Below, piece after piece: positions 9,234 through 63,948 of a stretch of 64,000 bases of DNA (positions are counted from its first letter, which is position 1; each line of letters begins with the position of its first letter). The position numbers and the translations under genes are program-made. A model generated the notes under the pieces. The model made no database searches and was not told the origin of the DNA. It saw nothing but the letters and a program-made list of their open reading frames with translations. This DNA comes from Paecilomyces variotii (lineage: Eukaryota), in the NCBI GenBank assembly GCA_004022145.1, contig RCNU01000008.1. One strand, given 5' to 3'.

Positions 9234-10356
9234 ATGTCGTCAACTCGGATATCAGAGAATGGTGCCGATGAGGAGGATGACTTCAAGAGTTTGGGCTTAC
9301 CGGCGGATCTGGAGGCCAAGACATATGCCAAGTTCGATAGTATGGTTAATGAACGGCGCATATTCTATGAAGTTACGAAGACTGAGATCTATTCGCATAA
9401 TGGGTTTCTGGTAGGTTTTCTTTATTTACTTTATTCATTCATTCATTCGTTCGTTTCCGTTTCGGTTACTACCCACTATTAGTAGTCGGGAGAGGATTAC
9501 CTATTCATGTCGGATTTCCCTATTGGGCTTTCTACCTGTTGGATTAATTGATAAAATAATATATAAAAACTCATTCCCACACATCCACTAACGAAAAAAA
9601 AACCCCCAGTTCGAATTCCGAATCACCCCCATCCTATCCGACAAACCAGTCCTACCACCCAACGACCCCGGCCGTATCAAATCCAGCGGACCCTTCATCA
9701 ACCCCAACCCAGACGAAGTAATCACCAACATCGGCGCATCCCATCGTCTCCTAGTAAATAAATACTGCATCTACAGACCCATGCTGGTCCTACCCACGCG
9801 CGAGTTCGCCTTACAAGAAGACGACCTGACCGCCACAGACCTCACTGCCGTATGGGCCGTGATGAAATCATTCTCTACGACCCGTCTCCTGATGATCTAT
9901 AACTGCGGTGTGAATTCCGGCTCGTCTCAGGGCCATAAGCACATGCAGCTGTTTGCAGAGCCGGAGTTTGAAATCTGGCCTGCGAGAGCGTCGGCGTCTG
10001 CTAGGGATGAAGTGGAGAGTAGGATTTCCGGCGTGTCGTTTAAGCATTTCGTGTTAAGGATTCCGGAACATGCCACGGCGAGGGATGTTGTGAGGATCCA
10101 TGACCGGCTTCTGGCGCTGACGAAGGATGTGTTGGTGAGGATTGGGGATGTGGATGGTGATTATAATGTCGCTATGACGGAGGAGTGGATGGTGCTTATT
10201 CCGCGCAGGACGTTTGGTCCTGGTGGACCGAATGGGTCGAATGCGGCGGGGATGTTGGGGCTTGTGGCGATTAAGGATGAAGAGGAGAGGAGGAGATGGG
10301 CCGAGTTGGGGTATACGGATTATTTGGCTTATTTGGGTGTTCCTATTGATGCGTAG
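9234..10356 (+). CDS. APA2: Diadenosine tetraphosphate (Ap4A) phosphorylase / ATP adenylyltransferase
   Basis: Exons 9234-9410 and 9610-10356. Motifs LLVNKYCIYRPMLVLPT, YNCGVNSGSSQGHKHMQ (HxHxQ), YNVAMTEEWMVLIPRR and NAAGMLG. Confidence 0.9.
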
Positions 10357-10619: not shown

Positions 10620-11757
10620 TTACCGAGCCAGGTTCTGGGGAGGAGGAACAGCTGGTCCCTCAGGGGTAACGTAGGCCTTGGTCATGCCTCCATCGACAAC
10701 AAAGTCGGCCGCATTGACGAAGCTGCTCTCGTCGCTGGCGAGGAAGACGACGGCCTGGGCTTGCTCGATGGCCTCTCCGAAACGGCCAGTGGGGAAGTGC
10801 ACTTCACGTCTGTGGCGCTTGGCCTGGTCGTCACCAAGCCAGTCCTGGAGGAGAGGAGTGCTGTTGATTGTTAGTATATTGCTCAGTGGATAATCATGAA
10901 GTGCATGGTGAGACATACTTGAGAGGAGCAGGGCAGAGAGAGTTGAAACGGAATCCCTCGCGGGCGTGCACAATGGCCAGCTCGCGGGTCATAGCTAGGA
11001 CAGCACCCTTGCTGGCAGTGTACGCCAGCTGAGGAGTAGCACTACCGACCAGGGCAACCACACTGGCCGTGTTGATGATGCTACCCTTGGTCTTCTTGTG
11101 TCTGCGCAGACTCAGGACGGCGTGCTTGCAACCGAACCACACTCCCTTGACGTTGATGTTGTGGGTCAGATCCCAGATCTTCTCGGGAGTGTCGAGAGCG
11201 TCGGCGTCATCGGCGTGCATGATACCCGCGTTGTTGAAGATGACATCCGTGCCGCCCCAGCTGTCCTGAGACTCCACCATGGCCTTCACGTCGGACTCCT
11301 TGGAGACATCACACTTGATCGTCTCGACGCGCTTGGCGTTAGGAACCAGCTCCTTCACCTTGGCCAGGGCTTTCTCGAGTGCAGGCTCGGAGATATCGGC
11401 CATCAGGACAGAGGCACCTTCGCGGGCAAAGAGGATGCTGGTCTCCAGACCGATTCCACTGGTAGCGGTTAGCATGTCTCGTTTCGTCAAGTGACTTCTG
11501 AGTCGATGTTGCCCCAAGTAGCTTGAAAAGGAGCTTCAAGATACTAGGTGAAGGTAGAAAAAAAGCATGCTAAACATGATGTAGAAGAGCCCCGCATGCC
11601 ATGCGAATAAATACACTGGCCAGATCAAACCACTTGCGCTTGACAAGCAGGACCAAAGGGCCTTTTGCAATCCACGGGTTTCAGTAATTATATAGAAATA
11701 AATAACTCACCCTGCGGCGCCAGTGATGATGGCATTCTTGCCTTCGAGTCGACCCAT
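10620..11757 (-). CDS. Classical SDR oxidoreductase, similar to the SDR of actinobacterial glnA4 operons (Rv2857c/SCO1611 type)
   Basis: Exons 11757-11711, 11458-10919, 10860-10620, plus a probable 5'UTR intron 11798-11872. [78 protein letters not shown]. Confidence 0.92.
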
Positions 11758-11879
11758 GGTGGCAGCAGCAGTGTTGATTCAAGGGAGATATAAACGCCTG
11801 CGGACAAGTTAACACTGAGTCAAACATTCCAAATGCCAGGCGCAGACTGGTATCAATCGCTGGTAAACTTACAGTTTGT

Positions 11880-12454
11880 GGAGAGCTGAGGATGTTAAAT
11901 GCCCAGCTCTGGATCTGATCTCGTTAATTGCCTGGAAGTTCGATGTCTTCTCAGGAACAGGACAGCAGAATCACCGTCGTGAATGCGGCGGGGTCTAGTG
12001 GCATGTGTGGATTCTCTTATCTAAGCTCGACCCGACAGGAGAGACGCCACATTGCTCAGGAACTAATCAGTCCAAGTACGTAACTATTCTATTGACTCAC
12101 TCTAGGACACACCGTTTCTAGAGAGACATCGCGATAGGAATAAAAGTCCTGACTTCATTATTGTCACTGAACATACGAGATCTAGTCCGACGTGTTTCGC
12201 TATCGAACAAGAAGAGGTAACCAGAGTCTAACCTTCCTTGGTGCCCGGGCGGTCAAGGATCTTGATAAGCTCCGATAAACGTCCTCAGCTCCTCCACCCC
12301 TCACTTGAACACTGGTCGTGCTGTCCGCTCCAGTCGCATACCTTCATCGTTGACCGTAGTAAAAAGGTTCTTCTTTGATAGTCGTTGTAAGTATTGACGC
12401 CGTTCTTCCGCCCAATCGTTGTGGTCCTGACAAGCAAGCTCTCAATAGGCCACC
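11880..12454. promoter_or_regulatory. Bidirectional promoter with clustered GATA (AreA-type) sites and a CreA-type site
   Basis: HGATAR on either strand at 12016-12022, 12132-12137, 12200-12205, 12263-12268, 12273-12278 and 12376-12381. SYGGRG (GCGGGG) at 11988-11993. Confidence 0.6.
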
Positions 12455-14158
12455 ATGTCCTCCGCAGATATCGAGGTCACGTTGGACAACGTCGCCCAGG
12501 TCCTGGAAAACGATACGAGGGTGAAAGTCGCTGGAATCGATGTCGATGGCGTCCTACGAGGAAAGCTCATATCCAAGAAGAAGTTCCTGTCGATTGCACA
12601 AGAAGGCTTCGGGTTCTGCTCTGTTATCTTCGGCTGGGATATGCACGACCGCACTTACTTCAAGGAATTGCAGATCAGCAACAAGGAGAATGGCTACAGG
12701 GATCTTGTTGCGATTCCGGATTTGAAAAGTTTCAGACGGATACCATGGGAGGACAATGTCCCGTTCTTCCTGGTCAGCTTTTTTGATCCAGAGACCAGGG
12801 AGCCCATTTGCGCGTGTCCTCGTGGCTTGCTCAAGACCGCAATGGATAAGTGGGAGAATGCGGGTTATAAGGCGATGGCTGGTGGTATGTATCCTGTTCC
12901 CAATCCTCAAGGCTGTCTCGACTGGGGTCTGAACTGACTTGGTCCAGCGGAATACGAGTTCTACCAGTTCCGCGCACCGGGCAGCAACGACAACCCTGAA
13001 CGCAATTCCTCCAACACAGCTACGTTTCTGAAGAACAACCCTGTCGAGGCTCTTCCGCCTCTGACAGAAGGCATGTTCGGGTACAGCTTGACGCGGCCAA
13101 TTCATAACCAAGAGTATTACTACGGTATCTTCGACGCATGCGAACAATTCAGATGCGATCTCGAGGGATGGCATACTGAGAGTGGGCCTGGTGTGTTCGA
13201 AGCTGTACGCCGCAGTTACCTTGAGAACATTGTCGAAGGCGACCGCTGATTTTATAATGATAGGCCTTGCAATTCGGGGAGATCAAAGATATGGCGGATA
13301 GAGCAGGTCTGTTCAAGTTAGTATACACCGTTGACCCTTCAGAGTCAGAAGAATATACACATGCTGACAGCTGCCAGATATGTGGTGAAGTCCTTAGGCA
13401 GTAAATTCGGCATTACACCCGCTTTCATGGCGAAACCCCGCGAGGGCCTCCCCGGTAACAGCGGCCACATGCACGTCTCCATCGTCTCGAAAGAGGGCAA
13501 GAATCTATTCGCGCGTGAGACGCCCGATGCTAACGCTCCCTATCCGGACGTTGCCTACCTCTCGGACCTGGGTAGACACTTCCTCGCCGGTCTACTTACT
13601 GGTCTGCCGGATATCATGCCTCTGCTGGCCCCGACCATCAACTCTTACAAGCGACTGGTCGAGAACTTCTGGGCTCCGGTTACCGTATCCTGGGGTCTGG
13701 AACATCGTGCAGCTTCCATCCGGCTCATCTCACCGCCGACAGCCAGCGCGAAGGCGACGCGCTTTGAGGTTCGCGTTCCGGGAGCGGATACCAATGCGCA
13801 CCTCGTCCTTGCCGCCATCGTTGCTTTGGGATGGTATGGCGTCGAGAACAAGCTCGAGATTCCCGTGCCTCCGCTGGGTAAGGGTGAAGATGTAGGCAGC
13901 GCGAGCGACCAGGGCACCCGACTGGCGAAGAATCTGAAGGAGGCAACCGTGCGATTTATGGCCAAGGACAGCATGGCCCGGAAGGTGTTTGGTGATGCTT
14001 TCGTGGAACACTTTGGTGGCACGAGAGAGCATGAAGTCCGCCTGTGGGAGGAGGCTGTTACTGACTGGTGGGGTTGCCTTTTTATGTTCCCAATGATGTC
14101 CACTTGATGCTGACCATTATCTGCTAGGGAGGTGAGACGATATATCGAGACGGTCTAA
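12455..14158 (+). CDS. Glutamine-synthetase-like gamma-glutamyl-amine ligase (GlnA4/PuuA type)
   Basis: Five exons: 12455-12884, 12948-13204, 13264-13316, 13378-14067, 14128-14158. Motifs DVDGVLRGK, GYRDLVAIPDLKSFRRIPW, AEYEF, HTESGPGVFE, FMAKP..GNSGHMHVS, NSYKRL..FWAP, RFEVRVPGAD, VTDWEVRRY. Confidence 0.92.
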
Positions 14159-15620: not shown

Positions 15621-15860
15621 TGCCACCGTTCCCACGGTCCTTCCCTTTCCCCGGCTTTTCCATCTCTCCTCTCGTCGATCGATACCATCAGTGATCTTAT
15701 ATAGCTTTATATTTACTGGAAGTCTCTCTTGAATTGGGATACGCAGAGAGAGACTCTATATACGCCGTTGTCGATCACGAGGATTCTTATCTCCTCAAAC
15801 TACGGGAACATAAATTCCACACAGGAACACCAAGACAAACCGAGCAGTCTTTCACTCACC

Positions 15861-17590
15861 ATGACTTCCGTCGAGGCTCAGCTGAAGGATGTTGCCATCC
15901 TGGGCAACGTGAGCAACGAAGCCCGCAAGATCCTCAGCAAGGAGGCCGTGGCCTTCCTGGCTCTGCTGCACCGCACCTTCAACCCCACCCGCAAGGCTCT
16001 GCTCCAGCGCCGGATTCAGCGCCAGGCTGAGATTGACCGAGGAAACCTGCTCGACTTCCTGCCCGAGACCAAGCACATCCGTGAGAACGATGCCTGGAAG
16101 GGTGCCCCTCCAGCTCCTGGTCTCGTCGACCGCCGTGTTGAGATTACCGGCCCAACGGACCGCAAGATGGTCGTCAACGCCCTGAACTCCGATGTCTGGA
16201 CCTACATGGCCGACTTTGAAGGTATGTGATTGAAAGTGAAACAACAAGCCTTGATCTGATCCTTATATTGGGATTGGTTTGGAAACTATCAGCGGTCTGG
16301 ATGGACTAAGCTAACACACGTACGATAACAGACTCTTCCGCTCCCACCTGGGACAACATGATCAACGGCCAGGTCAACCTGTACGATGCCATCCGTCGCC
16401 AGATCGACTTCACCCAGGGTGGCAAGGAGTACAAGCTCCGTACCGACCGCACCCTCCCTACCCTGATTGCTCGTGCTCGAGGCTGGCACCTCGAGGAGAA
16501 GCACTTCACCGTTGACGGTGAGCCTATCTCCGGCAGTCTGTTCGACTTCGGTCTTTACTTCTTCCACAACGCCAAGGAGCTGGTCGCCCGTGGCACCGGT
16601 CCTTACTTCTACCTGCCCAAGATGGAGTCTCACCTCGAGGCCCGTCTCTGGAACGACGTCTTCAACCTGGCTCAGGACTACATTGGCATGCCCCGTGGTA
16701 CCATCCGTGGTACCGTCCTGATCGAGACCATCACCGCTGCTTTCGAGATGGACGAGATCATCTACGAGCTCCGCGACCACAGCTCCGGTCTCAACTGCGG
16801 TCGCTGGGACTACATCTTCTCCTTCATCAAGAAGTTCCGCAACAACCCCAACTTCGTTCTCCCCGACCGTGCCGACGTCACCATGACCGTCCCCTTCATG
16901 GACGCCTATGTCAAGCTGCTCATCAAGACCTGCCACCGCCGTGGTGTCCACGCCATGGGTGGTATGGCCGCTCAGATCCCCATCAAGAACGACCCGGCTG
17001 CCAATGAAAAGGCCATGGAGGGTGTCCGTGCCGACAAGCTCCGTGAGGTCCGTGCTGGTCACGACGGTACCTGGGTTGCTCACCCTGCCCTGGCCTCTAT
17101 TGCCTCGGAGATCTTCAACAAGTACATGCCTACTCCCAACCAGCTGTTTGTCCGCCGCGAGGATGTCAACATCACCGCCAATGACCTGCTGAACACCAAC
17201 GTTCCCGGTAAGATCACCGAGGACGGTATCCGCAAGAACCTCAACATCGGTCTCTCCTACATGGAGGGCTGGCTCCGTGGTGTTGGCTGTATCCCTATCA
17301 ACTTCCTGATGGAGGATGCCGCTACCGCTGAGGTCTCCCGCAGCCAGCTGTGGCAGTGGGTCAAGCACGGTGTGACCAGCAGCGAGGGCAAGAAGATCGA
17401 CAAGGCCTACGCTCTCCGTCTGCTGCAGGAGCAGGCCAACGAGCTTGCCACCAAGGGCCCCAAGGGCAACAAGTTCCAGCTGGCTGCTCGCTACTTCGCC
17501 GACCAGGTCACTGGTGAGGACTACGCTGAGTTCTTGACCACCCTGCTGTACAACGAGATCTCCACGCCTGGCGCTGCTGCCAAGCTGTAA
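15861..17590 (+). CDS. acuE: Malate synthase, glyoxysomal
   Basis: Exons 15861-16221 and 16332-17590. Motifs [52 protein letters not shown]-terminal PTS1 AKL and strong codon bias. Confidence 0.98.
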
Positions 17591-43349: not shown

Positions 43350-45456
43350 TTAGAAACCTGTGGCAAGCAGATGTGTCAGCATGCTTTAATTACTCCAGGG
43401 AGGAAATACGACTGTTCGAGAGCCAACTGACCTTTCTCCGTGTTTCCTTCTCCCATACTCCTGTTGCTGCTGCTGCCGCTCTGAATCGCCCCGAGGATGC
43501 CGTCCATGTAGGGAGCACCACTCCACTTCTGGTGCGTGAGGACATCGACCTTCAGCTCCTTCTCACGGGACTGGATCAATCGCACATATGCCAGCATGCC
43601 TTCATCCTTGAAGGCACGCGACAGTTCCGTGGTGATTGTGGCATTGGAGTGGAGACCGGCGAGCGAGATAAGTTGAAGCACAAAGCTAAGGGAAGTCATC
43701 AATTAGCAGGTGGCCAGCACATCCGCAGAAGGAGGTTACTCACCCATGCTTGGCAAGATCCCAGACGAAGGACTTAAGACTCTGCTCATCAAATCCTTGG
43801 CCCATCCAGTTGAAAGACGGACTGAGGTTGTACACCAATTTCTTGCCGGGGAACGCGCTTCGAACCTCTCCAGCAAGTCCCGCGGCTTTCTCGACATTGG
43901 GGTCACCGGTCTCAACCCATAGGAGATCCGCATACGGAGCGAACTCCTTGGCTCGCTTCGTCGCAGCGGGGAATCCTGCGCGGTAATGGTAGAACCCTTC
44001 TCTGGTTCGGGGAACGTCCCACGACCACACAACGGGGCTTTTGGTAAAGTCGTTTGCCAGCTCCCGACGACGCGAAAGGGCGAGATCAGGGGTCTCGCGG
44101 ACCTTGGCCTTGTAGGCGTCTCGGACAGACTGCGACGCTCCCTCCTTCTCCAGATGCAGGTCGACAGCTATCGAGAACCTTTAGTAAACCTCAAACGGTA
44201 TTTATCGTATGGGGAGAACGTACCTTCATCGAACGTTACCAGCTTGTGTCTCTTCACCCAATCCAGCTCGTAAGCATCGATTTCGGCCGAGGAAGCACCT
44301 TCACGCTCCATTGCCTGAAGGGTCTCGGCCAGAGGCTCAGTCTCCTCCGTAACACCAAGAATGAACTCATGGTCACGAACGTCGATAGCGCTACTGATGA
44401 GCTTGCCGCTCTCAGAGTCCGTTCGCGCGATCAGCAGGTTCTCGGTTCCCATCATGTCCCATTGGAAACGAGCAGCTACCAGGCGGTTGATATGTTCGCC
44501 CACAGGAACCAGGACCTTTCCTGCGAGATGTCCGCATTTCTTCCCCCCATGCAGCTGATCTTCGAAATGGACCGCTGCAGCTCCATTTTCAGCAAAGAGC
44601 TTGGCGAGTTTCAGGACGGCTGAAAGTCCTCCGTGACTAGGATTTGTCAGTAAACAGTATTGCAACACCATGATCGAGAATCTCATACCCAGTATCGCCG
44701 TCAGCCACAATCGGCCTCAGGTAGTCAATGTAAGGCGTCGATTTACGTTCCTCTGGAGTCAGCTTCCGGCGCGCGTCGAAGTGCTTGCGGTCGTGCAATT
44801 GCTGGGCTTTGAAGAGTCTCTGAACCTGGTTTGGCACGGTGTTGTATGGGTAATCACCAAAGTCTGCGGAGACTTCATTGGTAGTTGTCAATAGAGACGA
44901 GCATGCCCACCCGGAAACGTATAGAATTTCCTGGTTTGGAGCTTGCTGGGTCATCTGTACCGGGTCGATGGCGCCCACTAGAAGTTGTCAGACGTATGCT
45001 TCCTTACAGTACCAGCAGAAAACCGTAGCGCTTACTGGTATGGACAGGCAGCCCCTGCGCCGCCCTCTCATTGAGCAGGTTAAAGAGCTTCCGTGCCATT
45101 ATTGAACTTGGATATGTCTGCTGTAGAGACCCCCGCTTGCTCACAACATCCGCCGCACTATACGGCCGCTTGATTCCCTCGAACCGAGGGGTCTTCCACC
45201 AGGCTTCCACATCCTTCACCTGCTGCTCGAAAAGAGCATCCTCAGCTTCTCCTGCCTTGTCCGCTGTCGACAGCAATTGAAACGAGTCCGATGGCAGTGT
45301 GGTCGACACTGGCGGCTCAACAGGGCGGAGGGACGAAGCCATCCGAGGATAGCCGACTGTGAAGGTCCGGACTGCTGTGCGAGACAAGCAGCCAGAAGTT
45401 GTAGATGGTCCAGGAACGCGACGAGGAACTCGACGAGCAACAGAGCGGAGCATCAT
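43350..45456 (-). CDS. mclA: 2-methylisocitrate lyase, mitochondrial
   Basis: Six exons, including a terminal 8-nt micro-exon 43357-43350 after intron 43358-43431 (…GNTEK|GF*). Arg-rich presequence, [47 protein letters not shown] and THQKWSGA. Confidence 0.95.
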
Positions 45457-46264
45457 GGCCGACAATGATCTTCACAAACGTGATGTTCAGGGCCGACAAT
45501 AAGAATTGCAGAGCCCCAAGCAAAGGATAACTTAGGTTTCACGTTATAGCCAGTTAGTCAGTCAGTTGCAGCTTAGGTAGCTGATGAATGGCAAACGCCG
45601 CCTCGGCCAAGTACCCGAGGTCTCTGGCAATCCGACCAGCTGGATCACCGGAAATCGGAGGGAAAGTAATGTGCAGGTTGCTGATCACCGATCTTCCACA
45701 GTTCGACCATCTAACTAAGACGCAGGACTTACACGTTTCGGTTGACCGAGAGGCGTTCGCAGATTCCAGCCGAACCAGGGCGACGGTATGCGCAAAGCTC
45801 AGATCACCAACTAGTTAGTTCTAGAGCGCACACAAAAGTGTCCGAAAGGAGCTTAGCAGTGCAGAAACCCTTTGGAGGCCAAGATGCGGTTTTCGCTGAT
45901 TAGAAATGGCCGGTCTCGCGAGAGGCAGGAGAATGAGAAGAAGCTCGGGAGTCTCTCTCACCCCTCAGCGGCTAAGCTAAGCTCAGTCGTGGCGTCTCCT
46001 CCTCTCCTGTCCCGACAACATCCCTCGGCTCATGCATTCTCACCGCGGGAAACCGAAGATGTGGCCTGACGGCATGATCCTGGTCGCTGCTGCTTATTTC
46101 TCGCCGGTCGAAGCGATTCACCCTTCTTGATATTTTTTTTTTCTAAACCTCCAGGTCTGGTCTGTATAACTATACTCGTCTTTTGGCTCTCCCCGCTAAG
46201 CTTCTCCGTCCCGTTCCCCAGCTTTAGCTGTCAGCCCCATTTTACCCCACAGATTCCCCAGACA
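45457..46264. promoter_or_regulatory. Bidirectional mclA/mcsA promoter with FarA/FarB-type CCTCGG sites
   Basis: CCTCGG at 45601-45606, CCGAGG at 45615-45620 and CCTCGG at 46023-46028. Confidence 0.65.
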
Positions 46265-47804
46265 ATGGCGCTGGCGTCGAGAACAACCCGCCAGGCTCTG
46301 AAGCTGAATCAAGTATGTCTGCTGTCCAAATACCTTGATACAATATACGACTCGAGCCATTGGGCAGTGAGAGGAGAGCATAGACTTACTTTTCAGTAGA
46401 CGTCGCGATTCGCGACTAGATATGCGCGCCAGTATTCGACTGCGGAGAAGGATCTGAAGACCACCCTCAAGGAGGTCATCCCCGAAAAACGCGAGCTTCT
46501 GAAAAAGGTCAAGGCCCAGGACGATGTGATCGGTGATGTCAAAGTCTCCAATGTCATTGGAGGAATGCGTGGTCTGAAGGCGTTGGTCTGGGAGGGATCA
46601 GTGCTGGACCCGAACGAGGGCATCCGCTTCCATGGCAAGACGATCAAGGACTGCCAGAAGGAACTCCCCAAGGGAACATCCGGCACGGAGATGCTGCCAG
46701 AGGCTATGTTCTGGCTTCTGCTGACTGGTCAGGTTCCTTCAACCAGCCAGGTGCGCGCCTTCTCGCGTGAGCTGGCCGAGAAGTCTCATCTTCCCCAGCA
46801 CATCCTAGATCTGATCAAGTCGTTTCCCAAGCACATGCACCCAATGACCCAGCTCTCCATCGCTGTTGGGGCGCTTAACACAGAATCCCAGTTCGCAAAG
46901 GCATACGAGCAGGGCCTGAACAAGGCCGATTACTGGGAGCCTACTTTCGAAGACAGCATCTCTCTACTTGCCAAGATCCCTCGTGTGGCGGCTCTGGTTT
47001 TCCGTTCGAATGAGATTGACCAGGTTGGAAACCAGAAGTTGGATGCCGCTCAGGACTGGTCCTACAACTTCGCAGAACTCCTTGGCAAGGGTGGCAAAGA
47101 GAACGAGGACTTCCATGACTTGCTGAGACTCTACCTTGCTCTGCATGGAGACCACGAGGGTGGAAACGTTTCGGCTCACACTACTCACCTTGTCGGTAGC
47201 GCCCTCAGCGACCCGTTCCTGAGCTACAGTGCTGGATTGCTGGGTCTCGCCGGCCCGCTACACGGTCTTGCGGCCCAGGAAGTCCTTCGCTGGATCCTGG
47301 CCATGCAGGAGGAGATCGGCACCAAGTTCAGCGACGAGGACGTCCGAGACTACCTGTGGAAGACCCTGAAGTCGGGGCGTGTTGTCCCTGGCTATGGACA
47401 CGGAGTCCTGCGCAAGCCTGACCCTCGTTTCCAGGCCCTGATGGACTTTGCTGCCACTCGACAGGACGTCCTGGCCAACCCAGTCTTCCAGCTGGTCAAG
47501 AAGAACTCTGAGATCGCTCCTGGTGTTCTGACTGAGCACGGAAAGGTATGTTTGCTCATTCTTGATATGTTCCAAGATACACTGCTAACGAAAGATTTAG
47601 ACTAAGAACCCTCACCCGAATGTCGACGCTGCATCCGGCGTGCTGTTCTACCACTACGGTTTCCAGAAGCCCCTCTACTACACTGTCACGTTCGGAGTCA
47701 GCCGTGCTCTTGGACCTCTTGCACAGCTCATCTGGGATCGGGCTCTGGGTCTACCCATCGAGAGACCCAAGTCTATCAACCTGCAGGGTCTGCTGCAGAA
47801 ATAA
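46265..47804 (+). CDS. mcsA: 2-methylcitrate synthase, mitochondrial
   Basis: Exons 46265-46312, 46400-47545, 47601-47804. Presequence, [61 protein letters not shown]. Divergent from mclA. Confidence 0.95.
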
Positions 47805-57764: not shown

Positions 57765-59092
57765 ATGTCGCTCCCTCTACCTCGGCCGCTCTTTCGTGCT
57801 GTCCTGAGCAGATCCTACGGGACTGTCCAGGGCACTCCGCCAGCAGCTGCCTCCTTGGCCTCGAGGATACCCCCGGCCCTGCAGGAAGCCACTGCGGCGA
57901 CAGCCCCGCGCACCAATTGGACTCGCGATGAAATCAAGCAGATCTATGAGTCTCCGTTGAACCAGCTCACGTATGCTGCGGTACGAACCAGTTGCTTGCT
58001 GACTTTGTTGTGTTCTGCTATTTTTTTGTTTTGTCGACTGTAACCTCGAGGAACGAATGATGAGGATTTGCATTTGCTCAAATTGGATATGCTATGATTA
58101 TCGAGACTGATCCTCCCAACCCATAGGCCGCCGTCCACCGCCGCTTCCACGATCCCTCTGCGATCCAGATGTGCACCCTGATGAACATCAAGACCGGCGG
58201 CTGCAGCGAAGACTGCTCCTACTGTGCGCAGTCCTCCCGCCACAACACGGGTCTCAAGGCCACGAAGATGAGCCCCGTCGACGAGGTGCTGGAGAAGGCC
58301 CGGATGGCCAAGAAGAACGGCAGCACGAGGTTCTGCATGGGTGCCGCCTGGCGAGACATGCGCGGGCGCAAGACCAGTCTCAAGAACGTCAAGCAGATGG
58401 TGTCCGGCATCCGGGACATGGGCATGGAAGTGTGTGTGACGCTGGGCATGATCGATCAGAACCAGGCCAAGGAGCTGAAGGAGGCTGGTCTCACGGCCTA
58501 CAACCACAACCTCGACACCTCGCGCGAGTTCTACCCGTCCATCATCACCACCCGTTCCTACGACGAGCGTCTGCAGACTCTCTCGCACGTCCGCGACGCG
58601 GGCATCAACGTCTGCTCCGGCGGTATCCTGGGTCTGGGTGAATCCGACTCGGACCGCGTTGGTCTTCTGTACACCGTCTCGAACCTGCCTTCGCACCCGG
58701 AATCCTTCCCCGTTAACGCTCTGGTTCCCATCCCCGGCACGCCCCTGGGTAACCGCAAGATGATCCCGTTCGACAAGATCCTGCGCACCGTCGCTACGGC
58801 CCGTATCGTGATGCCCGCTACCATCGTCCGTCTAGCCGCCGGCCGCATCTCCATGTCCGAGGAGCAGCAGATCCAATGTTTCATGGCGGGCGCCAATGCC
58901 GTCTTCACGGGCGAGAAGATGCTTACCACTGACTGCAACGGATGGGACGAGGACCGTGAGATGTTCGAGAAATGGGGCTTCTATCCCATGAAGAGCTTTG
59001 AGCGAGAGCAGACGCCGGACGCTCCCCCCGCCCAGCCCAAGGTGGAGAATGTGGAAACCGCTGCTGCTGCGCAGGTTGCGGCCAGTGCCTGA
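57765..59092 (+). CDS. bioB: Biotin synthase (radical SAM), mitochondrial
   Basis: Exons 57765-57980 and 58127-59092. CSEDCSYC, RFCMGAAWR, YNHNLDTSRE, VCSGGILGLGE, CFMAGAN. N-terminal presequence. Confidence 0.98.
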
Positions 59093-59417
59093 TCTTATTT
59101 CCCCCTCATTCTGCCATTCTGGAAACACCTTATGTCTTTGTGTTTATTTATGTTCTCATGTCGAAAAGAGCGACGATGGAGGCGAATATGTTTATATCTT
59201 TCAGCCTAGCGACAAAAATTTAGAGAATTTCGCATTTCTCATGAAAATACATATATTGTAGAACAAGTAAAGCTTGCGTCTTTCTAAAGGCGGTCTATAG
59301 TAAATTCAAATTTGCTTTCTTGGAAGATATCTGTTGATACAAAACATCTCATTTATTTATTCATGATTCATCTGAAAAGAATAGATAACTAGCTAGCTTA
59401 TCACGTCTTTTTTTCTA

Positions 59418-62052
59418 TCACAAAAGAGCCTCACGCAACAACCCCTCAATCTCTCTCAGAGATTCAGGCTTAGATGTCACGCTAGCCATGAGGTAGATCA
59501 CATTACCTAGTACCCGAGAGTGCACACCGTACGGCTTACCCGTCACGGCAAGTCGTTTCTGAAGGCCCTGAGCGGCGGTTGAGGTGTAACCTAGACTGGA
59601 GTTAAAATGACTTATTCAAATTATATAAACCGAAGATAGTTCCGTCGAGTGGGAAGGGGGAATGATCGTAACGAACCTCCTTTTCCAGATTCATCACGCA
59701 GAGTAATGCTCAACACGGTACCAATTGCAAACAGACCCTCGACAGAGTGCGCGAAGGAGAGATCCCGCACGAGACCATGGGACCAACTACTCCAAATAGC
59801 GTCTTCGGGCTTTGTGTGGGCGGCGGGAGATGATGCAGAAGTCCAATCGGCCTGGTACGGGTTCCATTGGCCTGTCTGCTCCATGTCCATCATTGTCTGT
59901 AATGATTTCTGAGCCACGGTACATCCGATCGCGTGGGCGGTGTAGCTGTGGCCGTGGAGGAGAGCGTCGCTCTTCTCGGGACTGGAGAAGGCGTCGAAGA
60001 TCTCGTTACTGGCCATGGTGGTGCAGAGGGGGAGTAGACCGCCTGTGAGGAGCTTGGCGTTGACTGTGATGTCCGGGTGTAAGCCTAGGAAGGAGGCAGC
60101 GGTGCGACGACCGAGACGGTATAGACCGGTGAAGACTTCGTCGAAGATGACGGGGAGGCCGGACCAGGATGTCGTTGAGGGCGATGGAGCCTTGGGGCTG
60201 AAGAGTTGTGGGTTGGAGCGGGTGACTTGGGTGAGGGTGTATTGGAATAGGGGATCGCTGTCGATAAGTGATAACATTAGTGAAGATTATAGGGAGCAGG
60301 TCAGATAGTGTGTTGAACTTACGCAAAGAGCATTCCGCCGGCTCCAAGGATGATCGGCTCCATGATGAGAGCGCCGAATTTCTTTCCTTCCTTGGCAACG
60401 AGATCCTCGATGGTACTTTGGATGTATGAGCGATAGCGCTTGGCGGCGTCTGAGTTGACGCGCTCTTCCAGATTGAAGATGGAGTCTAGAGTAGGGAATT
60501 CGAGATTGGGTCCCAGCGCTTCTTTCAACTCCTCAGGGACCTCTACATGCCACATGCCTTGGGACATCTTGATCTGAGGGAAGTCGAACCAATATCCACG
60601 TCCGCGGTACCATTCCACCTTCTTGTTATAGGTGGATGGTTCGGAGCAGTCCATGACACCGATGGTATCTCCGTGATAGCTTCCCTTCAGACCCAGGATG
60701 CTGATCTGTTCCTCGCTCCCGTCCCAACCGTAACGTGCACAAGATGCTCTCAGACCCATTTTGACAGCAACCTCCATACCTGTGCTTCCGTTATCGCTGT
60801 AGAACACTTTGCCAAGTCTGGGGTTTTCGTGGGCCTTGATCAATGACTCTGCCAGAGAAAGAGCTGGTTCGTGGACCGTGCCCGCAAACATAACATGGCC
60901 GTAGCGTCCGGCAGCATATGCGGCAGTCAGGGAGAGCTCTGGGTTACCATGGCCTAGACCCTGAGTCCACCAGGAGGCTGAGCCATCGAAGGTAGGTTTC
61001 AAGACACCAGCACCAGCATTGCTCGCCTGAGCGCTGTCCGGCTTGTAGGTCTGGAAGTAGTCGTCATATGCCGAGTCGATCACGGAGATATCCTTGGCGG
61101 TCATGCCTTGATGCTGCGTGAATGGATACCAGATGACATTGTGTGCGCGCTCCGCCATTGAACTTAGGCGATCCACTCTCTGCGTATTCTTGGTAGACAG
61201 ATCGTCCAGTAGACCCTGGATATCAGATTTCTTAGACACGCTCTCATAATAGGCAGCTAGAGCTTCTTCATCTCTGGCAAGTGCGTCTGCGTCTTCGACT
61301 GGTGGTTTCTCAGGCGGCTGAGGAAGCGAGAGCAATGGTATGCCTCTCTTTTCGAAGTACGTACGCAGATACTCATGGTTCTTGTAGTAGTCATCTTCGA
61401 AGAGCAAGACCGTGTGCACATCGTAACCCCGAATCAGCAGTGATTCGAAAGCCGAGATTGATGATGAGATTCCTCCCAGACGCGAATCGCCAACCAGAAC
61501 AACTGGCAGTCTTAGAGGCCTGTAGAGGTCTGCCTGAGAGTTTCCATTAGGACCAGGCGAGTGGACGCCGCCTGCCGTTTCCACCAGGGCGAATTTGATC
61601 CCGTCGTCAGCCCATTTGGTGAGAGTGGTATGCACCCCAGTCAAAATCTCGTCATCCTTGGGGATCTAGGACTATGTGAGTGACGGTCGATCTAATTGGG
61701 AAATGGAAGCCTTACAGTCTTTGACTGAGCTGCGATATGAGGGCTGACAGGCTCATCAAATTGATATAGACCCTTCTGCAGCGTCCCCGGTGAGAAGCGT
61801 TCGATATGCCTGAAAGACCCAATTAGATCAATTGCACTGCCATTGGCTTTCACACGTAGCGCACCTGTAGTCTGCTTCATCTAACGGGCCTGTAGACACA
61901 GGTTTGAGGAAGCCAACCTTGCGCGCAGAGGGGTGTCGCAAGGCTCCATTACATAGAACTGTCGAGACGACTGTTTTGCCGACGTTGGTGTTCGCGCCGT
62001 AAACCTGATGCGCACACAGCTGTCGCCAAAGGGCGCCGCCAACAGGAGCCAT
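59418..62052 (-). CDS. bioDA: Bifunctional dethiobiotin synthetase / DAPA aminotransferase
   Basis: Five exons (introns 61810-61864, 61666-61715, 60258-60322, 59591-59676). YGANTNVGKT, LKPVSTG, VETAGGVHSP, WYPFTQH, DGSASWWT, FDEVFTG, AKLLTGG, HGHSYTAH. Confidence 0.96.
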
Positions 62053-62601
62053 GGTGGTGAAGAGCTGCGATCACCTCTTCCTACTCAACCACCGTGCAAT
62101 TGAGCGGAAATCTATGCGACATCAATTGGACTCAAAAGACTGCTCTGATTCCATGAATCAATAATCAATAATCAATCCATGCTATCTCGGAACTGATAAC
62201 CGAACGCCGCGGCCACCAGAGCGCGTCCGACGATCGCTGGCGCTTCAACGGTTCCTCGCGGCCTGACAAAATTTTTCCCGTCGTGCTCCGCTCCACCAGA
62301 TTTCTCATGGAAAAGGCGTTGGCCCCAACACGATTCGTCACCGGGAGCGTGCGGTCCATGGTGGGATTTTTCTCTGGAAGTTAAGTTAGTCTAGTTCTAT
62401 CTGAACGGGAAATTTGGTCTATCTCGTTCTCCACTGGTGGCCGTCAGACCGGTCGATGTTAACTAACTAGGTCACTCCCGCAGTTAGTCACAGTTGGGAT
62501 CTTTATAGAAACTCCCTCGTACCTCGGAAAGGAGCACAATGGCAATGGCGAAGCTCAAAGAATAAGATTGCTAGTTTTCTTGTTCCTGAAGATGCGTTAG
62601 G
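62053..62601. promoter_or_regulatory. Bidirectional bioDA/bioF promoter
   Basis: 549-bp head-to-head spacer. It shares motifs with the bioB promoter and has CCTCGG at 62522-62527. Confidence 0.6.
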
Positions 62602-63948
62602 ATGGCTTCTTCACAATCTCTCCTCAATTCGTTCCAGGCCGCGCTGAAGCGGAGGGAGGCCAAGTCATCCAGGCGAAAATTGACTGTGCTTCCCCCGGGC
62701 TCCGTTGATTTTTCGTCTAATGATTTCCTGTCACTTTCTACATCTTCTAGTTTCCGGTCTCGTTTCCTACACCATGTGAACAGTACGCCTGCGTCTCAGC
62801 CGCTGGCAAGCGGTGGATCCCGACTTCTGGACGGCAATTCCCACTATGCGGAGGAGTTGGAGAAGTTCATTGCGGGGTTCCATGATGCCCCGAGCGGATT
62901 GCTATTCAATTCAGGCTATGACGCTAATGTCGGGGTCTTTTCATGCATCCCGCAGCCTGGGGATGTGATCCTGTATGATGAGCTGATTCATGCCAGCATC
63001 CACGAGGGCATGCGGCTCTCAAGGGCGACTAAACGCATCAAGTTCGCACACAATTCGCCATCAGGTCTAAAAGAGGCGCTGGAGAAGCAGATTCAGGATG
63101 ACCAGGCCATTGTAAATGGTACCCGCAATGTCTTCATCGCCCTGGAATCTGTGTATAGTATGGACGGGGATATCGCCCCGGTAAAAGAATTCATCCAGGT
63201 CGTGCACGACCTTCTCCCACGAGGCAATGGCTACTTCATCGTGGATGAAGCACACGCAACAGGTGTCTTTGGCCCCCGCGGCGCTGGCGTTATCCAGGGC
63301 CTAGACGAGCAGAAGCATATATTCATTCGAGTGCACACTTTTGGAAAAGCTCTTGCAAGTCATGGAGGTATCTTCGCGGCCCACGTCACTTGCATTTCGA
63401 TAGCCCGCTAATATTACGATTCAGCCATTGTTCTATGTGATCCTCTCACAAGAGACTATCTCATTAATTATGCTCGAAGTCTCATCTACACCACGGCATT
63501 GGCCTTCCCATCACTAGCTTCCATCCGCACAGCATACGAGCTCCTTCAGCGAGGTGAAACAGAATCCGTACGTCCCCGAACAGCCCAAAAAAGATATTCC
63601 ACACTTACTAATATCATCCAGCTTCGAGAAAACCTCCAATATCTAATCCGACATTTCCGCGCCCGTCTGAGAGAGATTCAACTAGCAGACTCCTCCATTC
63701 TGGAAGTAGATCACTTCCCAGACTCCCCGATCTTCTCCTTTCGGAGTCCATTCCCCCGTGATCTGGCAACTGCCTGTCAGCGTGAAGGGTTTATCGTTCG
63801 TGCTATCATGCCTCCCACCGTTCCTGCAGGTAAGGAACGGGTAAGGGTTTGTCTGCATGCCGGCAACACTACGAAGGAAATCGATGATTTTCTAAAGATC
63901 GTCCGGAAATGGGCGTCTGAGAAGAAAGGGGCTGTCCCTCGTTTATGA
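62602..63948 (+). CDS. bioF: 8-amino-7-oxononanoate (KAPA) synthase, peroxisomal
   Basis: Exons 62602-63367, 63425-63567, 63622-63948. DFSSNDFLSL, SGGSRLLDGN, FNSGYDAN, DEAHATG, HTFGKA and RVRVCLHAGN. C-terminal PTS1-like PRL. Confidence 0.96.

What the first reader, a model, noticed from the sequence alone, without database searches (positions are those of the whole stretch)
10620..14158. Candidate fungal gamma-glutamylation pathway for ethanolamine/amines: GlnA4-like ligase head-to-head with a glnA4-operon-type SDR
Seen: a bacterial-type GS-like gene and an SDR transcribed divergently, with start codons about 0.7 kb apart. The GS-like protein has FWAP (~13667-13678) where ammonium-using GSI enzymes have the Glu flap (YEAP), and it carries GYRDLVAIPDLKSFRRIPW. 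The SDR has [42 protein letters not shown]. Known: an aromatic residue at the flap position is typical of gamma-glutamyl-amine ligases. In Streptomyces coelicolor, GlnA4 (SCO1613) glutamylates ethanolamine and lies with an SDR (SCO1611), an aldehyde dehydrogenase and a hydrolase; Mycobacterium Rv2860c-Rv2857c has the same layout. From memory, this SDR closely resembles Rv2857c. Inference: this fungus keeps the first two steps (ligase, then alcohol dehydrogenase) as a co-regulated unit, i.e. a B12-independent ethanolamine utilisation route. I know of no characterisation of such a route in fungi.
Basis: partly seen in the sequence, partly recalled or inferred. Interest (0 to 1): 0.82.

Follow-up and report, generated by a model that had tools for sequence, protein, structure and literature searches.

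The report
Fungal gamma-glutamyl amine-breakdown gene pair
A mould carries, back to back, a glutamine-synthetase-like enzyme and a small dehydrogenase that most likely start the breakdown of ethanolamine by first tagging it with glutamate, a route known in bacteria but which I did not find described in fungi.

Summary
The window (most likely Paecilomyces variotii) holds a 486-aa GSI-like gene (+, 12455-14158, 4 introns). It also holds a 275-aa classical SDR gene (-, 11757-10620, 2 coding introns). Their ATGs lie 697 nt apart. Spliced RNA contigs confirm every intron.

The ligase keeps all metal, ATP and glutamate residues of glutamine synthetase. It has G188/P272/W345 where GS has Y179/N264/E327.

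It is not inside the actinobacterial GlnA4 clade (AU test p 1.7e-10). It nests (SH-aLRT 99) in a sister bacterial clade at 38-45% identity. That clade's genes sit beside an ethanolamine permease, an Fe-alcohol dehydrogenase and an aldehyde dehydrogenase.

The SDR is the best match of the SDR of actinobacterial SDR-ALDH-GlnA4-type clusters (45-52% identity). It clusters with that family.

The pair is adjacent in 23 of 31 dereplicated fungal metagenome contigs with enough flank. It is also adjacent in five named species.

Two independent lines therefore point to glutamylation of ethanolamine, or a close amino alcohol, followed by oxidation. No ALDH or hydrolase gene is linked. No biochemistry exists. 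No fungal report was found in my searches.

Verdict: interpretation partly supported; a new variant of a known bacterial pathway.

The parts
10620..10860 (-). SDR last coding exon (stop codon at 10620-10622); holds [15 protein letters not shown] and the C-terminal AYVT tail
   Evidence: splice model; joint 10860>10919 in X1 and X2; adh_short_C2
10861..10918 (-). SDR intron 2 (58 nt, GT..AG on the minus strand)
10919..11458 (-). SDR main exon: NNAG 91-94, S148, Y162-x3-K166, D37 after strand beta-2
11459..11710 (-). SDR intron 1 (252 nt); splits the TGAAGGIG cofactor motif
   Evidence: joint 11458>11711 in X1 and X2; orthologue N-termini
11711..11757 (-). SDR first coding exon (ATG at 11757-11755); an in-frame TGA lies upstream
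11797..11871 (-). intron in the SDR 5' untranslated region (75 nt)
   Evidence: joint 11796>11872 in X1 and X2
11758..12454 (.). shared divergent intergenic/promoter region with 6 HGATAR sites (12017, 12132, 12200, 12263, 12273, 12376)
   Evidence: the orthologous regions are enriched
12455..12884 (+). GS-like exon 1 (N-terminal beta-grasp-like domain; FGWD and GYRDLVAIPDLKSFRRIPW)
12948..13204 (+). GS-like exon 2 (E145, E147, G188, E221, E228)
13264..13316 (+). GS-like exon 3 (53 nt micro-exon)
13378..14067 (+). GS-like exon 4 (catalytic domain; P272, G273, H277, H279, S281, R339, W345, R357, R362, R375, E377, R379)
13667..13678 (+). codons for F344-W345-A346-P347; W345 replaces the Glu327 flap residue of glutamine synthetase
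14128..14158 (+). GS-like last exon and stop codon
   Evidence: orthologue C-termini

Best explanation
The two genes encode the first two enzymes of a glutamate-tagging (gamma-glutamylation) route for ethanolamine, or a very similar small amino alcohol.

Step 1 (inferred). The GS-like ligase makes gamma-glutamyl phosphate from Glu and ATP. All residues for this half-reaction are kept. The amino group of ethanolamine then attacks it, giving gamma-glutamylethanolamide. The ammonium site of true GS is rebuilt (Y179>G188, N264>P272, E327>W345), exactly as in the bacterial clade linked to ethanolamine permease.

Step 2 (inferred). The SDR is probably NAD-dependent (D37, S148/Y162/K166). It oxidises the free hydroxyl to gamma-glutamyl-aminoacetaldehyde.

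Steps 3 and 4 (not found here). An aldehyde dehydrogenase gives gamma-glutamylglycine, and a hydrolase releases glycine and glutamate. These enzymes would be encoded elsewhere.

The pair shares a GATA-rich divergent promoter, which fits nitrogen-regulated expression.

Shown: gene models, transcription, residues, phylogeny, synteny. Inferred: substrate, reaction order, regulation.
For: (1) Catalytic core. E129, E131, E212, E220, G265, H269, H271, S273, R321, R339, R344, R355, E357 and R359 of GS are kept in 9 of 9 fungal rows. Site 179 is G in 8 of 9, site 264 is P in 9 of 9, and site 327 is W in 8 of 9. The permease-linked bacterial clade has the same residues (G 16/16, P 15/16, W 16/16).

(2) Tree of 77 GS-family rows. 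The fungi (SH-aLRT 94) plus 2 unnamed rows (100) nest in a clade with the permease-linked bacteria (99). That clade lies in a 58-row clade (98) that also holds the GlnA4-type clade and excludes PuuA.

(3) The 80 closest bacterial loci (38-45% identity). An ethanolamine-permease homologue is present in 34 of the 71 loci with enough flank. Fe-ADH is present in 53 of 73 and ALDH in 41 of 69. All three are present in 23 of 80. The one permease scanned scores 420.4 bits on TIGR00908 'ethanolamine permease', whose cut-off is 381.75.

(4) SDR family. The orthologue P0128 scores highest on NF004713 (278.1 bits; next family 211.1). NF004713 passes its cut-off in 30 of 201 Actinomycetota genomes. In 19 of 20 fetched loci a GS-like gene lies within about 3.5 kb. 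The layout is SDR-ALDH-GS plus GntR plus Peptidase_C26. That ligase scores 405 and 395 bits to PDB 11zs and 5dm3.

(5) Best hits. In 5 of 5 genomes the best hit of the fungal SDR is the GS-linked one (215-251 bits; next paralogue 110-160 bits). The fungal and GS-linked SDRs form one clade (87, inside a clade with 95). They share 20 clade-specific columns, many of them in the substrate loop.

(6) Linkage. The pair is adjacent in 23 of 31 dereplicated fungal contigs (21 divergent). It is adjacent in T. stipitatus, two Emergomyces species, Helicocarpus and Cirrosporium.

(7) Promoter. There are 135 HGATAR sites in 21 orthologous intergenic regions, against 68.8 +/- 7.6 in shuffles (0 of 500 reach the observed count).

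(8) The pathway exists in bacteria: GlnA4 in S. coelicolor (passages of PMC6529630) and a cluster induced on phosphatidylethanolamine in Phaeobacter (passages of PMC10132767).
Against: No enzyme of the fungal clade, nor of its nearest bacterial clade, has been assayed. The substrate call rests on gene neighbourhood in bacteria at 38-45% identity.

The SDR role is only a prediction even in S. coelicolor (PMC6529630 Discussion).

No ALDH, Peptidase_C26 hydrolase or ethanolamine permease was found next to the pair. This holds in the window (68 ORFs of at least 110 aa scanned). It also holds among the conserved neighbours in 41 fungal contigs of at least 6 kb.

8 of 31 dereplicated fungal contigs lack the SDR within the DNA held.

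The SDR is below the NF004713 cut-off (278 vs 404 bits). Its exclusive clade has only SH-aLRT 87.

Both proteins are conserved at about 80-90% identity across classes. That is high for an accessory catabolic route and may point to a more central substrate.

A 2026 paper reports that in M. tuberculosis GS3, not GS4, is the efficient ethanolamine enzyme (abstract and passages of PMC13740247). Clade and substrate therefore do not map simply.

In M. oryzae, deletion of MoGLN3 gave no growth or virulence defect on the media used (passages of PMC8229676). MoGLN3 is possibly the orthologue, but this was not verified.
Confidence: 0.6

Rival explanations
1. The chemistry is the same (gamma-glutamylation, then oxidation) but the physiological amine is different. 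Candidates are another small amino alcohol (aminopropanols, serinol, 4-aminobutanol) or a hydroxylated amine from lipid or secondary metabolism. Ethanolamine would be at most a side substrate.
For: The substrate is inferred only from bacterial operons. Conservation is very high, 77-100% for the ligase exon and 84-100% for the SDR exon among the 120 best hits of each search. No ethanolamine transporter is linked in fungi. GS-like enzymes are promiscuous towards amines (abstract of PMC13740247). In genome G230 the same SDR type sits beside a GS-like gene of a different subfamily.
Against: The pocket residues G/P/W are the same as in the clade whose genes sit beside a permease that passes the 'ethanolamine permease' equivalog cut-off. 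The SDR's nearest family lies in clusters that match the published ethanolamine cluster of S. coelicolor.
Confidence: 0.22
2. The two genes are neighbours by inherited synteny and a bidirectional promoter only. They act in unrelated processes. The SDR would be a general oxidoreductase, and the GS-like protein a regulator or sensor, as is discussed for other GSI-like proteins.
For: 8 of 31 fungal contigs lack the adjacency. Public records annotate the SDR as 'glucose 1-dehydrogenase' and the like. GSI-like proteins such as FluG have developmental roles with unknown chemistry (abstract of PMC6478659).
Against: An SDR of the same family is linked to GS-like genes in three separate settings. These are 19 of 20 actinobacterial loci, the one proteobacterial genome that has such an SDR, and fungi. 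All catalytic residues of the ligase are kept. The protein resembles the FluG surrogate PA5508 (PDB 4hpp) poorly: 78.6 bits against 147.6 for 5dm3.
Confidence: 0.1
3. The GS-like protein is a genuine additional glutamine synthetase that uses ammonium.
For: Public annotations call it 'glutamine synthetase'. The best NCBIfam row is TIGR00653.
Against: It scores 213.7 bits against a cut-off of 429.15. Y179, N264 and E327 of the ammonium site are replaced. It falls outside the GlnA clade in the tree.
Confidence: 0.03

Closest known systems
Bacterial GS-like clade linked to ethanolamine permease, Fe-ADH and ALDH (Bacteroidota, Burkholderiales, Myxococcota, Bdellovibrionota and others). It is uncharacterised biochemically.
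   Same: It is the nearest relative by sequence (38-45% identity) and by tree (SH-aLRT 99). It has the same G179/P264/W327 pocket signature. The predicted reaction is the same.
   Different: In bacteria it forms an operon with an Fe-type alcohol dehydrogenase, an ALDH and a permease. The fungal gene has introns, stands in a divergent pair, and is partnered by an SDR instead. That SDR type is absent from those bacterial loci: 1 weak hit in 80 loci and none closer than 38% identity in 5 genomes.
GlnA4 (SCO1613) gamma-glutamylethanolamide synthetase cluster of Streptomyces coelicolor, and the C. salexigens homologue (PDB 5dm3)
   Same: It has the same fold and the same loss of the ammonium site, with an aromatic flap residue. 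It lies in the same 58-row superclade (98). 5dm3 and 11zs are the best PDB matches of the fungal protein (147.6 and 146.4 bits). The partner SDR is of the same family.
   Different: Identity is only 27.5-31%. A joint clade is rejected. The signature is D/E/F rather than G/P/W. The bacterial cluster also holds ALDH, a Peptidase_C26 hydrolase, a GntR regulator and often a permease, none of which is linked in the fungus.
NF004713 / PRK06057 SDR (the short-chain dehydrogenase of actinobacterial GlnA4-type clusters; SCO1611 by the published layout)
   Same: It is the best-scoring family. Identity is 45-52% over the full length. It shows a best-hit relation with a wide gap to paralogues. It shares 20 clade-specific columns.
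   Different: The score is below the curated equivalog cut-off (278.1 vs 404 bits). The fungal branch is long (0.81). The activity is only predicted, in bacteria as well.
E. coli Puu pathway (PuuA, PuuC, PuuD)
   Same: The logic is the same: gamma-glutamylate an amine, oxidise it, then hydrolyse. PuuA also has an aromatic residue (Y) at site 327.
   Different: PuuA lies in a separate clade (98). Its substrate is putrescine, and its oxidation step uses an oxidase rather than an SDR (feature table; pathway from general knowledge).
FluG and GSI-like proteins of fungi and plants
   Same: These are eukaryotic GSI-type proteins without GS activity, thought to make a gamma-glutamyl compound (abstract of PMC6478659).
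   Different: FluG carries an N-terminal amidohydrolase region. It resembles SCO6962 and can be replaced by PA5508 (passages of PMC6478659). The window protein has no such domain and matches PA5508 (4hpp) weakly. FluG itself was not put in the tree.

Membership tests
GS-like gamma-glutamyl-amine ligases (GSI fold, no ammonium site) | Metal, ATP, glutamate and phosphoryl-transfer residues of GSI are kept | tested here: met
   E145, E147, E221, E228, G273, H277, H279, S281, R339, R357, R362, R375, E377 and R379 align with the GS residues
GS-like gamma-glutamyl-amine ligases (GSI fold, no ammonium site) | Ammonium-site residues are replaced, with an aromatic residue at the E327 flap | tested here: met
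   Y179>G188, N264>P272, E327>W345. F331 in GlnA4 and W296 in PauA7 are as published
Actinobacterial GlnA4 (SCO1613-type) clade | Falls inside the clade of SDR/ALDH-linked actinobacterial ligases | tested here: not met
   The ACT clade (100) excludes the fungi. The AU test of FUN+ACT held together gives dlnL 227 and p 1.7e-10 (the group was named after the tree was seen).
Actinobacterial GlnA4 (SCO1613-type) clade | Pocket signature D179 / E264 / F327 | tested here: not met
   The fungus has G/P/W. ACT has D 13/13, E 13/13 and F 13/13
Actinobacterial GlnA4 (SCO1613-type) clade | Clustered with SDR, ALDH, gamma-glutamyl hydrolase (Peptidase_C26) and a GntR regulator | tested here: not met
   Only the SDR is adjacent. 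No ALDH or C26 was found among 68 window ORFs of at least 110 aa, nor among the conserved neighbours in fungal contigs. Short exons could have been missed
Actinobacterial GlnA4 (SCO1613-type) clade | Glutamylates ethanolamine in vitro and is needed for growth on ethanolamine | not testable with these tools
   Needs an enzyme assay and a knock-out
Ethanolamine-permease-linked GS-like clade (bacterial, uncharacterised) | Phylogenetic inclusion | tested here: met
   The fungi nest in the 28-row (99) and 38-row (99) clades with these bacteria. Identity is 38-45%
Ethanolamine-permease-linked GS-like clade (bacterial, uncharacterised) | Pocket signature G179 / P264 / W327 | tested here: met
   FUN: G 8/9, P 9/9, W 8/9. 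EAP: G 16/16, P 15/16, W 16/16
Ethanolamine-permease-linked GS-like clade (bacterial, uncharacterised) | Operon with eat-type permease, Fe-ADH and ALDH | tested here: not met
   None of them is adjacent in the window. An SDR takes the place of the Fe-ADH
NF004713 (PRK06057) SDR equivalog | Score at or above the curated cut-off of 404 bits | tested here: not met
   The orthologue P0128 (92% identical over exon 2) scores 278.1 bits. The window exons score 157.4 and 81.3 bits
NF004713 (PRK06057) SDR equivalog | Closest family and shared clade with GS-linked SDRs | tested here: met
   It is the top NCBIfam row by 67 bits. It is the best hit in 5 of 5 genomes. The clade has SH-aLRT 87 inside a clade with 95. 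There are 20 shared specific columns
Classical SDR | TGxxxGxG, NNAG and the S-Y-K triad | tested here: met
   TGAAGGIG at 12-19, NNAG at 91-94, S148, Y162, K166; Pfam adh_short
True glutamine synthetase type I (TIGR00653) | Score at or above 429.15 bits and an intact ammonium site | tested here: not met
   213.7 bits; the site residues are replaced
FluG-type bifunctional protein | N-terminal amidohydrolase region fused to the GS-like region | tested here: not met
   The protein is 486 aa with only Gln-synt_C detected. The alignment to 5dm3 covers residues 20-484

The most novel reading that the evidence does not exclude
Filamentous fungi, and by the tree also chytrids, Glomeromycota and some yeasts for the ligase, carry an old, vertically inherited gamma-glutamylation route. 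It turns ethanolamine from phosphatidylethanolamine turnover into glycine. It would be the first such pathway in eukaryotes. It is a mosaic: a ligase of the permease-linked bacterial type joined to an SDR of the actinobacterial GlnA4-cluster type, under AreA-type nitrogen control. It would be the main ethanolamine catabolic route of Pezizomycotina, with the later steps done by unlinked general enzymes.
Probability: 0.4. Interest if true: 0.72.

Novelty: new variant of a known kind. Interest (0 to 1): 0.6.

Why it matters
If true, it assigns a function to a gene pair that is present and highly conserved across Pezizomycotina, including model and pathogenic species (A. nidulans AN6654; the A. 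fumigatus, Neurospora, Blastomyces and Coccidioides orthologues). Public records now label these genes 'glutamine synthetase' and 'glucose 1-dehydrogenase'.

It would add a B12-independent, microcompartment-free ethanolamine route to fungal nitrogen and phospholipid metabolism. It would extend the gamma-glutamyl 'protect, oxidise, release' logic from bacteria to eukaryotes.

The prediction can be tested directly with two recombinant enzymes and two knock-outs.

It also shows that 'GlnA4-like' hides at least two deep ligase clades with different pocket signatures.

Tried and rejected
- No whole genome is held for the window. The missing ALDH and hydrolase could therefore not be sought genome-wide.
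- A 40-row alignment was too diverse for the search for related loci. An 11-row alignment worked.
- The 14 named control genomes of the genome search do not include Streptomyces or Mycobacterium. SCO1611/1613 and Rv2857c/2860c could not be placed by name. GlnA4-type loci were recognised by their layout instead.
- PDB entry 11zs could not be identified beyond its title. The M. tuberculosis GS4 entry 9WRM named in PMC13740247 was not among the hits.
- Metatranscriptome runs X6 and X7 gave unspliced contigs with many differences. They may be DNA or another strain and were not used.
- Contig depth was not used to compare expression, as the tool warns.
- Two low-depth joints with CT..AC ends inside the ligase gene appear in X2 only and were left unexplained.
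- The first GATA comparison, intergenic against the rest of each locus (21 of 21 higher), is confounded by base composition. It was replaced by dinucleotide shuffles. General promoter enrichment was not controlled.
- Orthology of MoGLN3 (MGG_02538) could not be verified.
- Literature searches for a fungal route found nothing: glutamylethanolamide spellings gave 8 papers, none fungal by title; AN6654/AN6655 gave 0 papers. Supplements and subscription journals were not searched.
- FluG itself was not fetched. Its distance is argued through PA5508 (4hpp) only.
- No structure or complex prediction was run, because none would decide the substrate.


Full report
**What is there**

The window is fungal. 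Exon 4 of the GS-like gene is 100% identical to a 486-aa 'hypothetical protein' of Paecilomyces variotii. Exon 2 of the SDR is 100% identical to a P. variotii record.

From the sequence I built two gene models.
- The GS-like gene lies on the + strand: 12455-12884, 12948-13204, 13264-13316, 13378-14067 and 14128-14158. It encodes 486 aa and has four GT..AG introns of 59-63 nt with CTGAC-type branch sites.
- The SDR gene lies on the - strand: 11757-11711, 11458-10919 and 10860-10620. It encodes 275 aa and has introns of 252 and 58 nt.

Contigs of two runs (X1, X2) contain all six joints. They also contain a 75-nt intron in the SDR leader, at 11797-11871. Both genes are therefore transcribed and spliced as modelled.

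The public SDR model for this species (P0122, 313 aa) reads through the first intron and loses the TGxxxGxG motif. Orthologues such as P0128 start as in my model.

The ATGs have 697 nt between them. FWAP is encoded at 13667-13678.

**What the ligase is**

Pfam sees only Gln-synt_C. No NCBIfam model reaches its cut-off; TIGR00653 scores 213.7 bits against a cut-off of 429.

I aligned the protein with E. coli GlnA (positions).
- Every residue for the two metals, ATP, glutamate and phosphoryl transfer is kept: E145, E147, E221, E228, G273, H277, H279, S281, R339, R357, R362, R375, E377 and R379.
- The ammonium site is rebuilt: Y179>G188, N264>P272 and E327>W345.

**Relatives of the ligase**

- The family is conserved at 77-100% identity over exon 4 among the 120 best of 1600 hits. 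These hits are named from several classes of Pezizomycotina.
- At 50%-clustered depth it also appears in Glomeromycota (57%), two chytrids (51% and 48%) and two yeasts (46% and 49%).
- The nearest prokaryotic genes are 38-45% identical. The scan found 599 relatives, and the best 80 were kept. They come from Bacteroidota, Burkholderiales, Myxococcota, Bdellovibrionota and others.

I looked at what lies around those 80 bacterial genes.
- A permease homologue is present in 34 of the 71 loci with enough flank.
- An Fe-type alcohol dehydrogenase is present in 53 of 73.
- An aldehyde dehydrogenase is present in 41 of 69.
- All three are present in 23 of 80. An independent clustering gave 38, 59 and 49 loci.
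- The one permease that I scanned passes the curated cut-off of TIGR00908 'ethanolamine permease' (420.4 vs 381.75 bits).

I reached it independently and checked only its composition.

**Relation to GlnA4**

I found the actinobacterial type through its SDR.
- NF004713 passes its cut-off in 30 of 201 sampled Actinomycetota genomes.
- 49 of 201 match at E<=1e-90. That tally includes three unpublished genomes, G121, G175 and G089, all below the cut-off.
- I fetched 20 of the 30 loci. In 19 of them a GS-like gene lies within about 3.5 kb. The twentieth is cut by its contig end.
- Three annotated loci show SDR-ALDH-GS plus a GntR regulator and a Peptidase_C26 hydrolase. Two also hold a permease, and one is followed by glycine-cleavage P-protein genes.
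- This is the published S. coelicolor layout.

Scores against solved structures rank the three ligase types.
- These actinobacterial ligases score 405 and 395 bits to PDB 11zs and 5dm3.
- The permease-linked type scores 283 and 268 bits.
- The fungal protein scores 146 and 148 bits, against 130 for the best true GS and 79 for PA5508/4hpp.

I built a 77-row tree (quick IQ-TREE, SH-aLRT only).
- The 9 fungal rows are one group (94). With two unnamed rows they form a clade (100).
- That clade nests among the permease-linked bacteria (99).
- The actinobacterial type is a separate clade (100).
- Both lie in a 58-row clade (98) that excludes the PuuA clade and the true GS.
- Holding the fungal and actinobacterial rows together costs 227 log-likelihood units (p-AU 1.7e-10). 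The group was chosen after the tree was seen.

The pocket signature agrees with the tree. It is G/P/W in the fungi (8/9, 9/9, 8/9) and in the permease-linked clade (16/16, 15/16, 16/16). It is D/E/F in the actinobacterial type (13/13 each).

The ligase is therefore a relative of GlnA4, but not a member of its clade.

**What the SDR is**

It is a classical SDR, with TGAAGGIG, NNAG, S148, Y162 and K166. An Asp (D37) follows strand beta-2, which from general knowledge of SDRs suggests NAD.

- The orthologue P0128 scores 278.1 bits on NF004713, 67 bits above the next family but below the 404-bit cut-off.
- The window's SDR protein is 44-52% identical to the SDR in 20 of 20 actinobacterial loci.
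- In 5 of 5 genomes that hold 35-142 SDR candidates each, the best hit of P0128 is the GS-linked SDR (215-251 bits). The next paralogue scores 110-160 bits.
- Among 351 sampled Pseudomonadota genomes only one has a hit at E<=1e-55. There too the SDR sits divergently beside a GS-like gene, one of another subfamily.
- The five genomes with the permease-linked ligase have nothing closer than 38%. The 80 loci hold one weak hit.
- In a 58-row tree the fungal and GS-linked SDRs form one group (87) inside a clade with 95.
- They share 20 columns that 29 other SDRs mostly lack. Many of these lie in the substrate loop and the C-terminal tail.

**Linkage and promoter in fungi**

Adjacent accession numbers or locus tags show the pair in Talaromyces stipitatus, Emergomyces africanus, E. 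pasteurianus, Helicocarpus griseus and Cirrosporium.

In metagenome contigs I found 79 loci, which dereplicate into 62 groups.
- 31 groups have at least 2.2 kb upstream of the ligase gene.
- 23 of these carry the SDR: 21 divergent and 2 on the same strand.
- 8 do not carry it.
- The carriers include three groups whose ligase is only 53-60% identical to the window's.

No ALDH or hydrolase is a conserved neighbour. None is in the window.

The 697-nt intergenic region has 6 HGATAR sites, against about 2.2 expected. 6% of sliding windows are as dense, and the shuffle P is 0.03. The 21 orthologous regions hold 135 sites against 68.8 +/- 7.6 in dinucleotide shuffles, and 0 of 500 shuffles reach the observed count. 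This is suggestive of GATA-factor nitrogen control. It was not compared with other promoters.

**Reading**

Two independent lines converge on one function. The ligase's kin sit in ethanolamine-permease operons, and the SDR's kin sit in GlnA4-type clusters. Together they point to gamma-glutamylation of ethanolamine, or a close amino alcohol, followed by oxidation of the hydroxyl.

The route is established or proposed in bacteria:
- S. coelicolor (PMC6529630);
- C. salexigens (cited in that paper);
- Phaeobacter, where the cluster's proteins rise on phosphatidylethanolamine (PMC10132767).

I found no fungal report.

Several points stand against certainty.
- No assays exist for either clade.
- The later steps are not linked.
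- Conservation is unusually high.
- Substrate and clade do not map simply in M. tuberculosis (PMC13740247).
- A possibly orthologous M. oryzae deletion had no phenotype on standard media (PMC8229676).

I rate the pathway reading at about 0.6. Its novelty is a new variant of a known kind: a eukaryotic, two-gene, mosaic version.

Noticed in passing
window 11459-11757 (-): The public P. variotii model of the SDR (P0122, 313 aa) reads through the 252-nt first intron. This gives a wrong N-terminus without the TGxxxGxG motif. RNA joints and orthologues support a 275-aa protein that starts [19 protein letters not shown].
   Followed up: yes
window 11797-11871 (-): A 75-nt intron lies in the 5' untranslated region of the SDR gene (joint 11796>11872 in runs X1 and X2). 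The SDR transcript therefore starts well inside the 'intergenic' region.
   Followed up: partly
window 15705-17587 (+): A malate synthase gene lies about 1.5 kb downstream of the ligase gene. A Penicillium record (P0062, 1040 aa) fuses the two families in one model, so the adjacency is probably conserved there. The A. nidulans orthologue of the ligase is AN6654; that malate synthase acuE is its neighbour is recalled, not checked. One X1 contig of 4827 nt starts at 12449 and runs on past 14500.
   Followed up: partly
window 13308-13559: Run X2 alone shows two low-depth joints with CT..AC ends (13308>13359, 13504>13559) inside ligase exon 4. They may come from a spliced antisense transcript or from assembly noise.
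   Followed up: no
window 43739-45471 (-) and 46400-47602 (+): An isocitrate-lyase-family gene and a citrate-synthase-family gene are divergent neighbours, possibly methylcitrate-cycle genes. In metagenome locus L268 an MmgE/PrpD gene lies near the ligase-SDR pair.
   Followed up: no
window 58127-63408: An apparent biotin cluster: a radical-SAM/BATS gene (bioB-like), a class-III aminotransferase gene (bioDA-like) and a class-I/II aminotransferase gene (bioF-like).
   Followed up: no
window 9592-10353 (+): An Ap4A phosphorylase / ATP adenylyltransferase-like gene lies just beyond the 3' end of the SDR gene.
   Followed up: no
proteins P0242 (4424 aa), P0279 (2757 aa), P0340 (1356 aa): These giant predicted proteins carry 9, 3 and 3 separate GS-like stretches related to this family. 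Their origin is unknown. They may be tandem arrays merged by gene callers or true multi-domain proteins.
   Followed up: no
L138 6438-8789 (genome G230): A proteobacterial genome has a divergent GS-like/SDR pair, as in the fungus. Its ligase belongs to another GS-like subfamily: its best PDB matches are true GS and Glu-methylamine ligase. The same SDR type may therefore serve several gamma-glutamyl ligases.
   Followed up: partly
L131 3849-12290: In one actinobacterial GlnA4-type cluster, a PLP enzyme gene and glycine-cleavage P-protein genes follow directly. This fits glycine as the end product.
   Followed up: no
L221 9350-9997 and 10 other fungal metagenome loci: A dienelactone-hydrolase-family gene lies downstream of the ligase gene in 11 of 41 fungal contigs of at least 6 kb. 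Its relevance is unknown.
   Followed up: no
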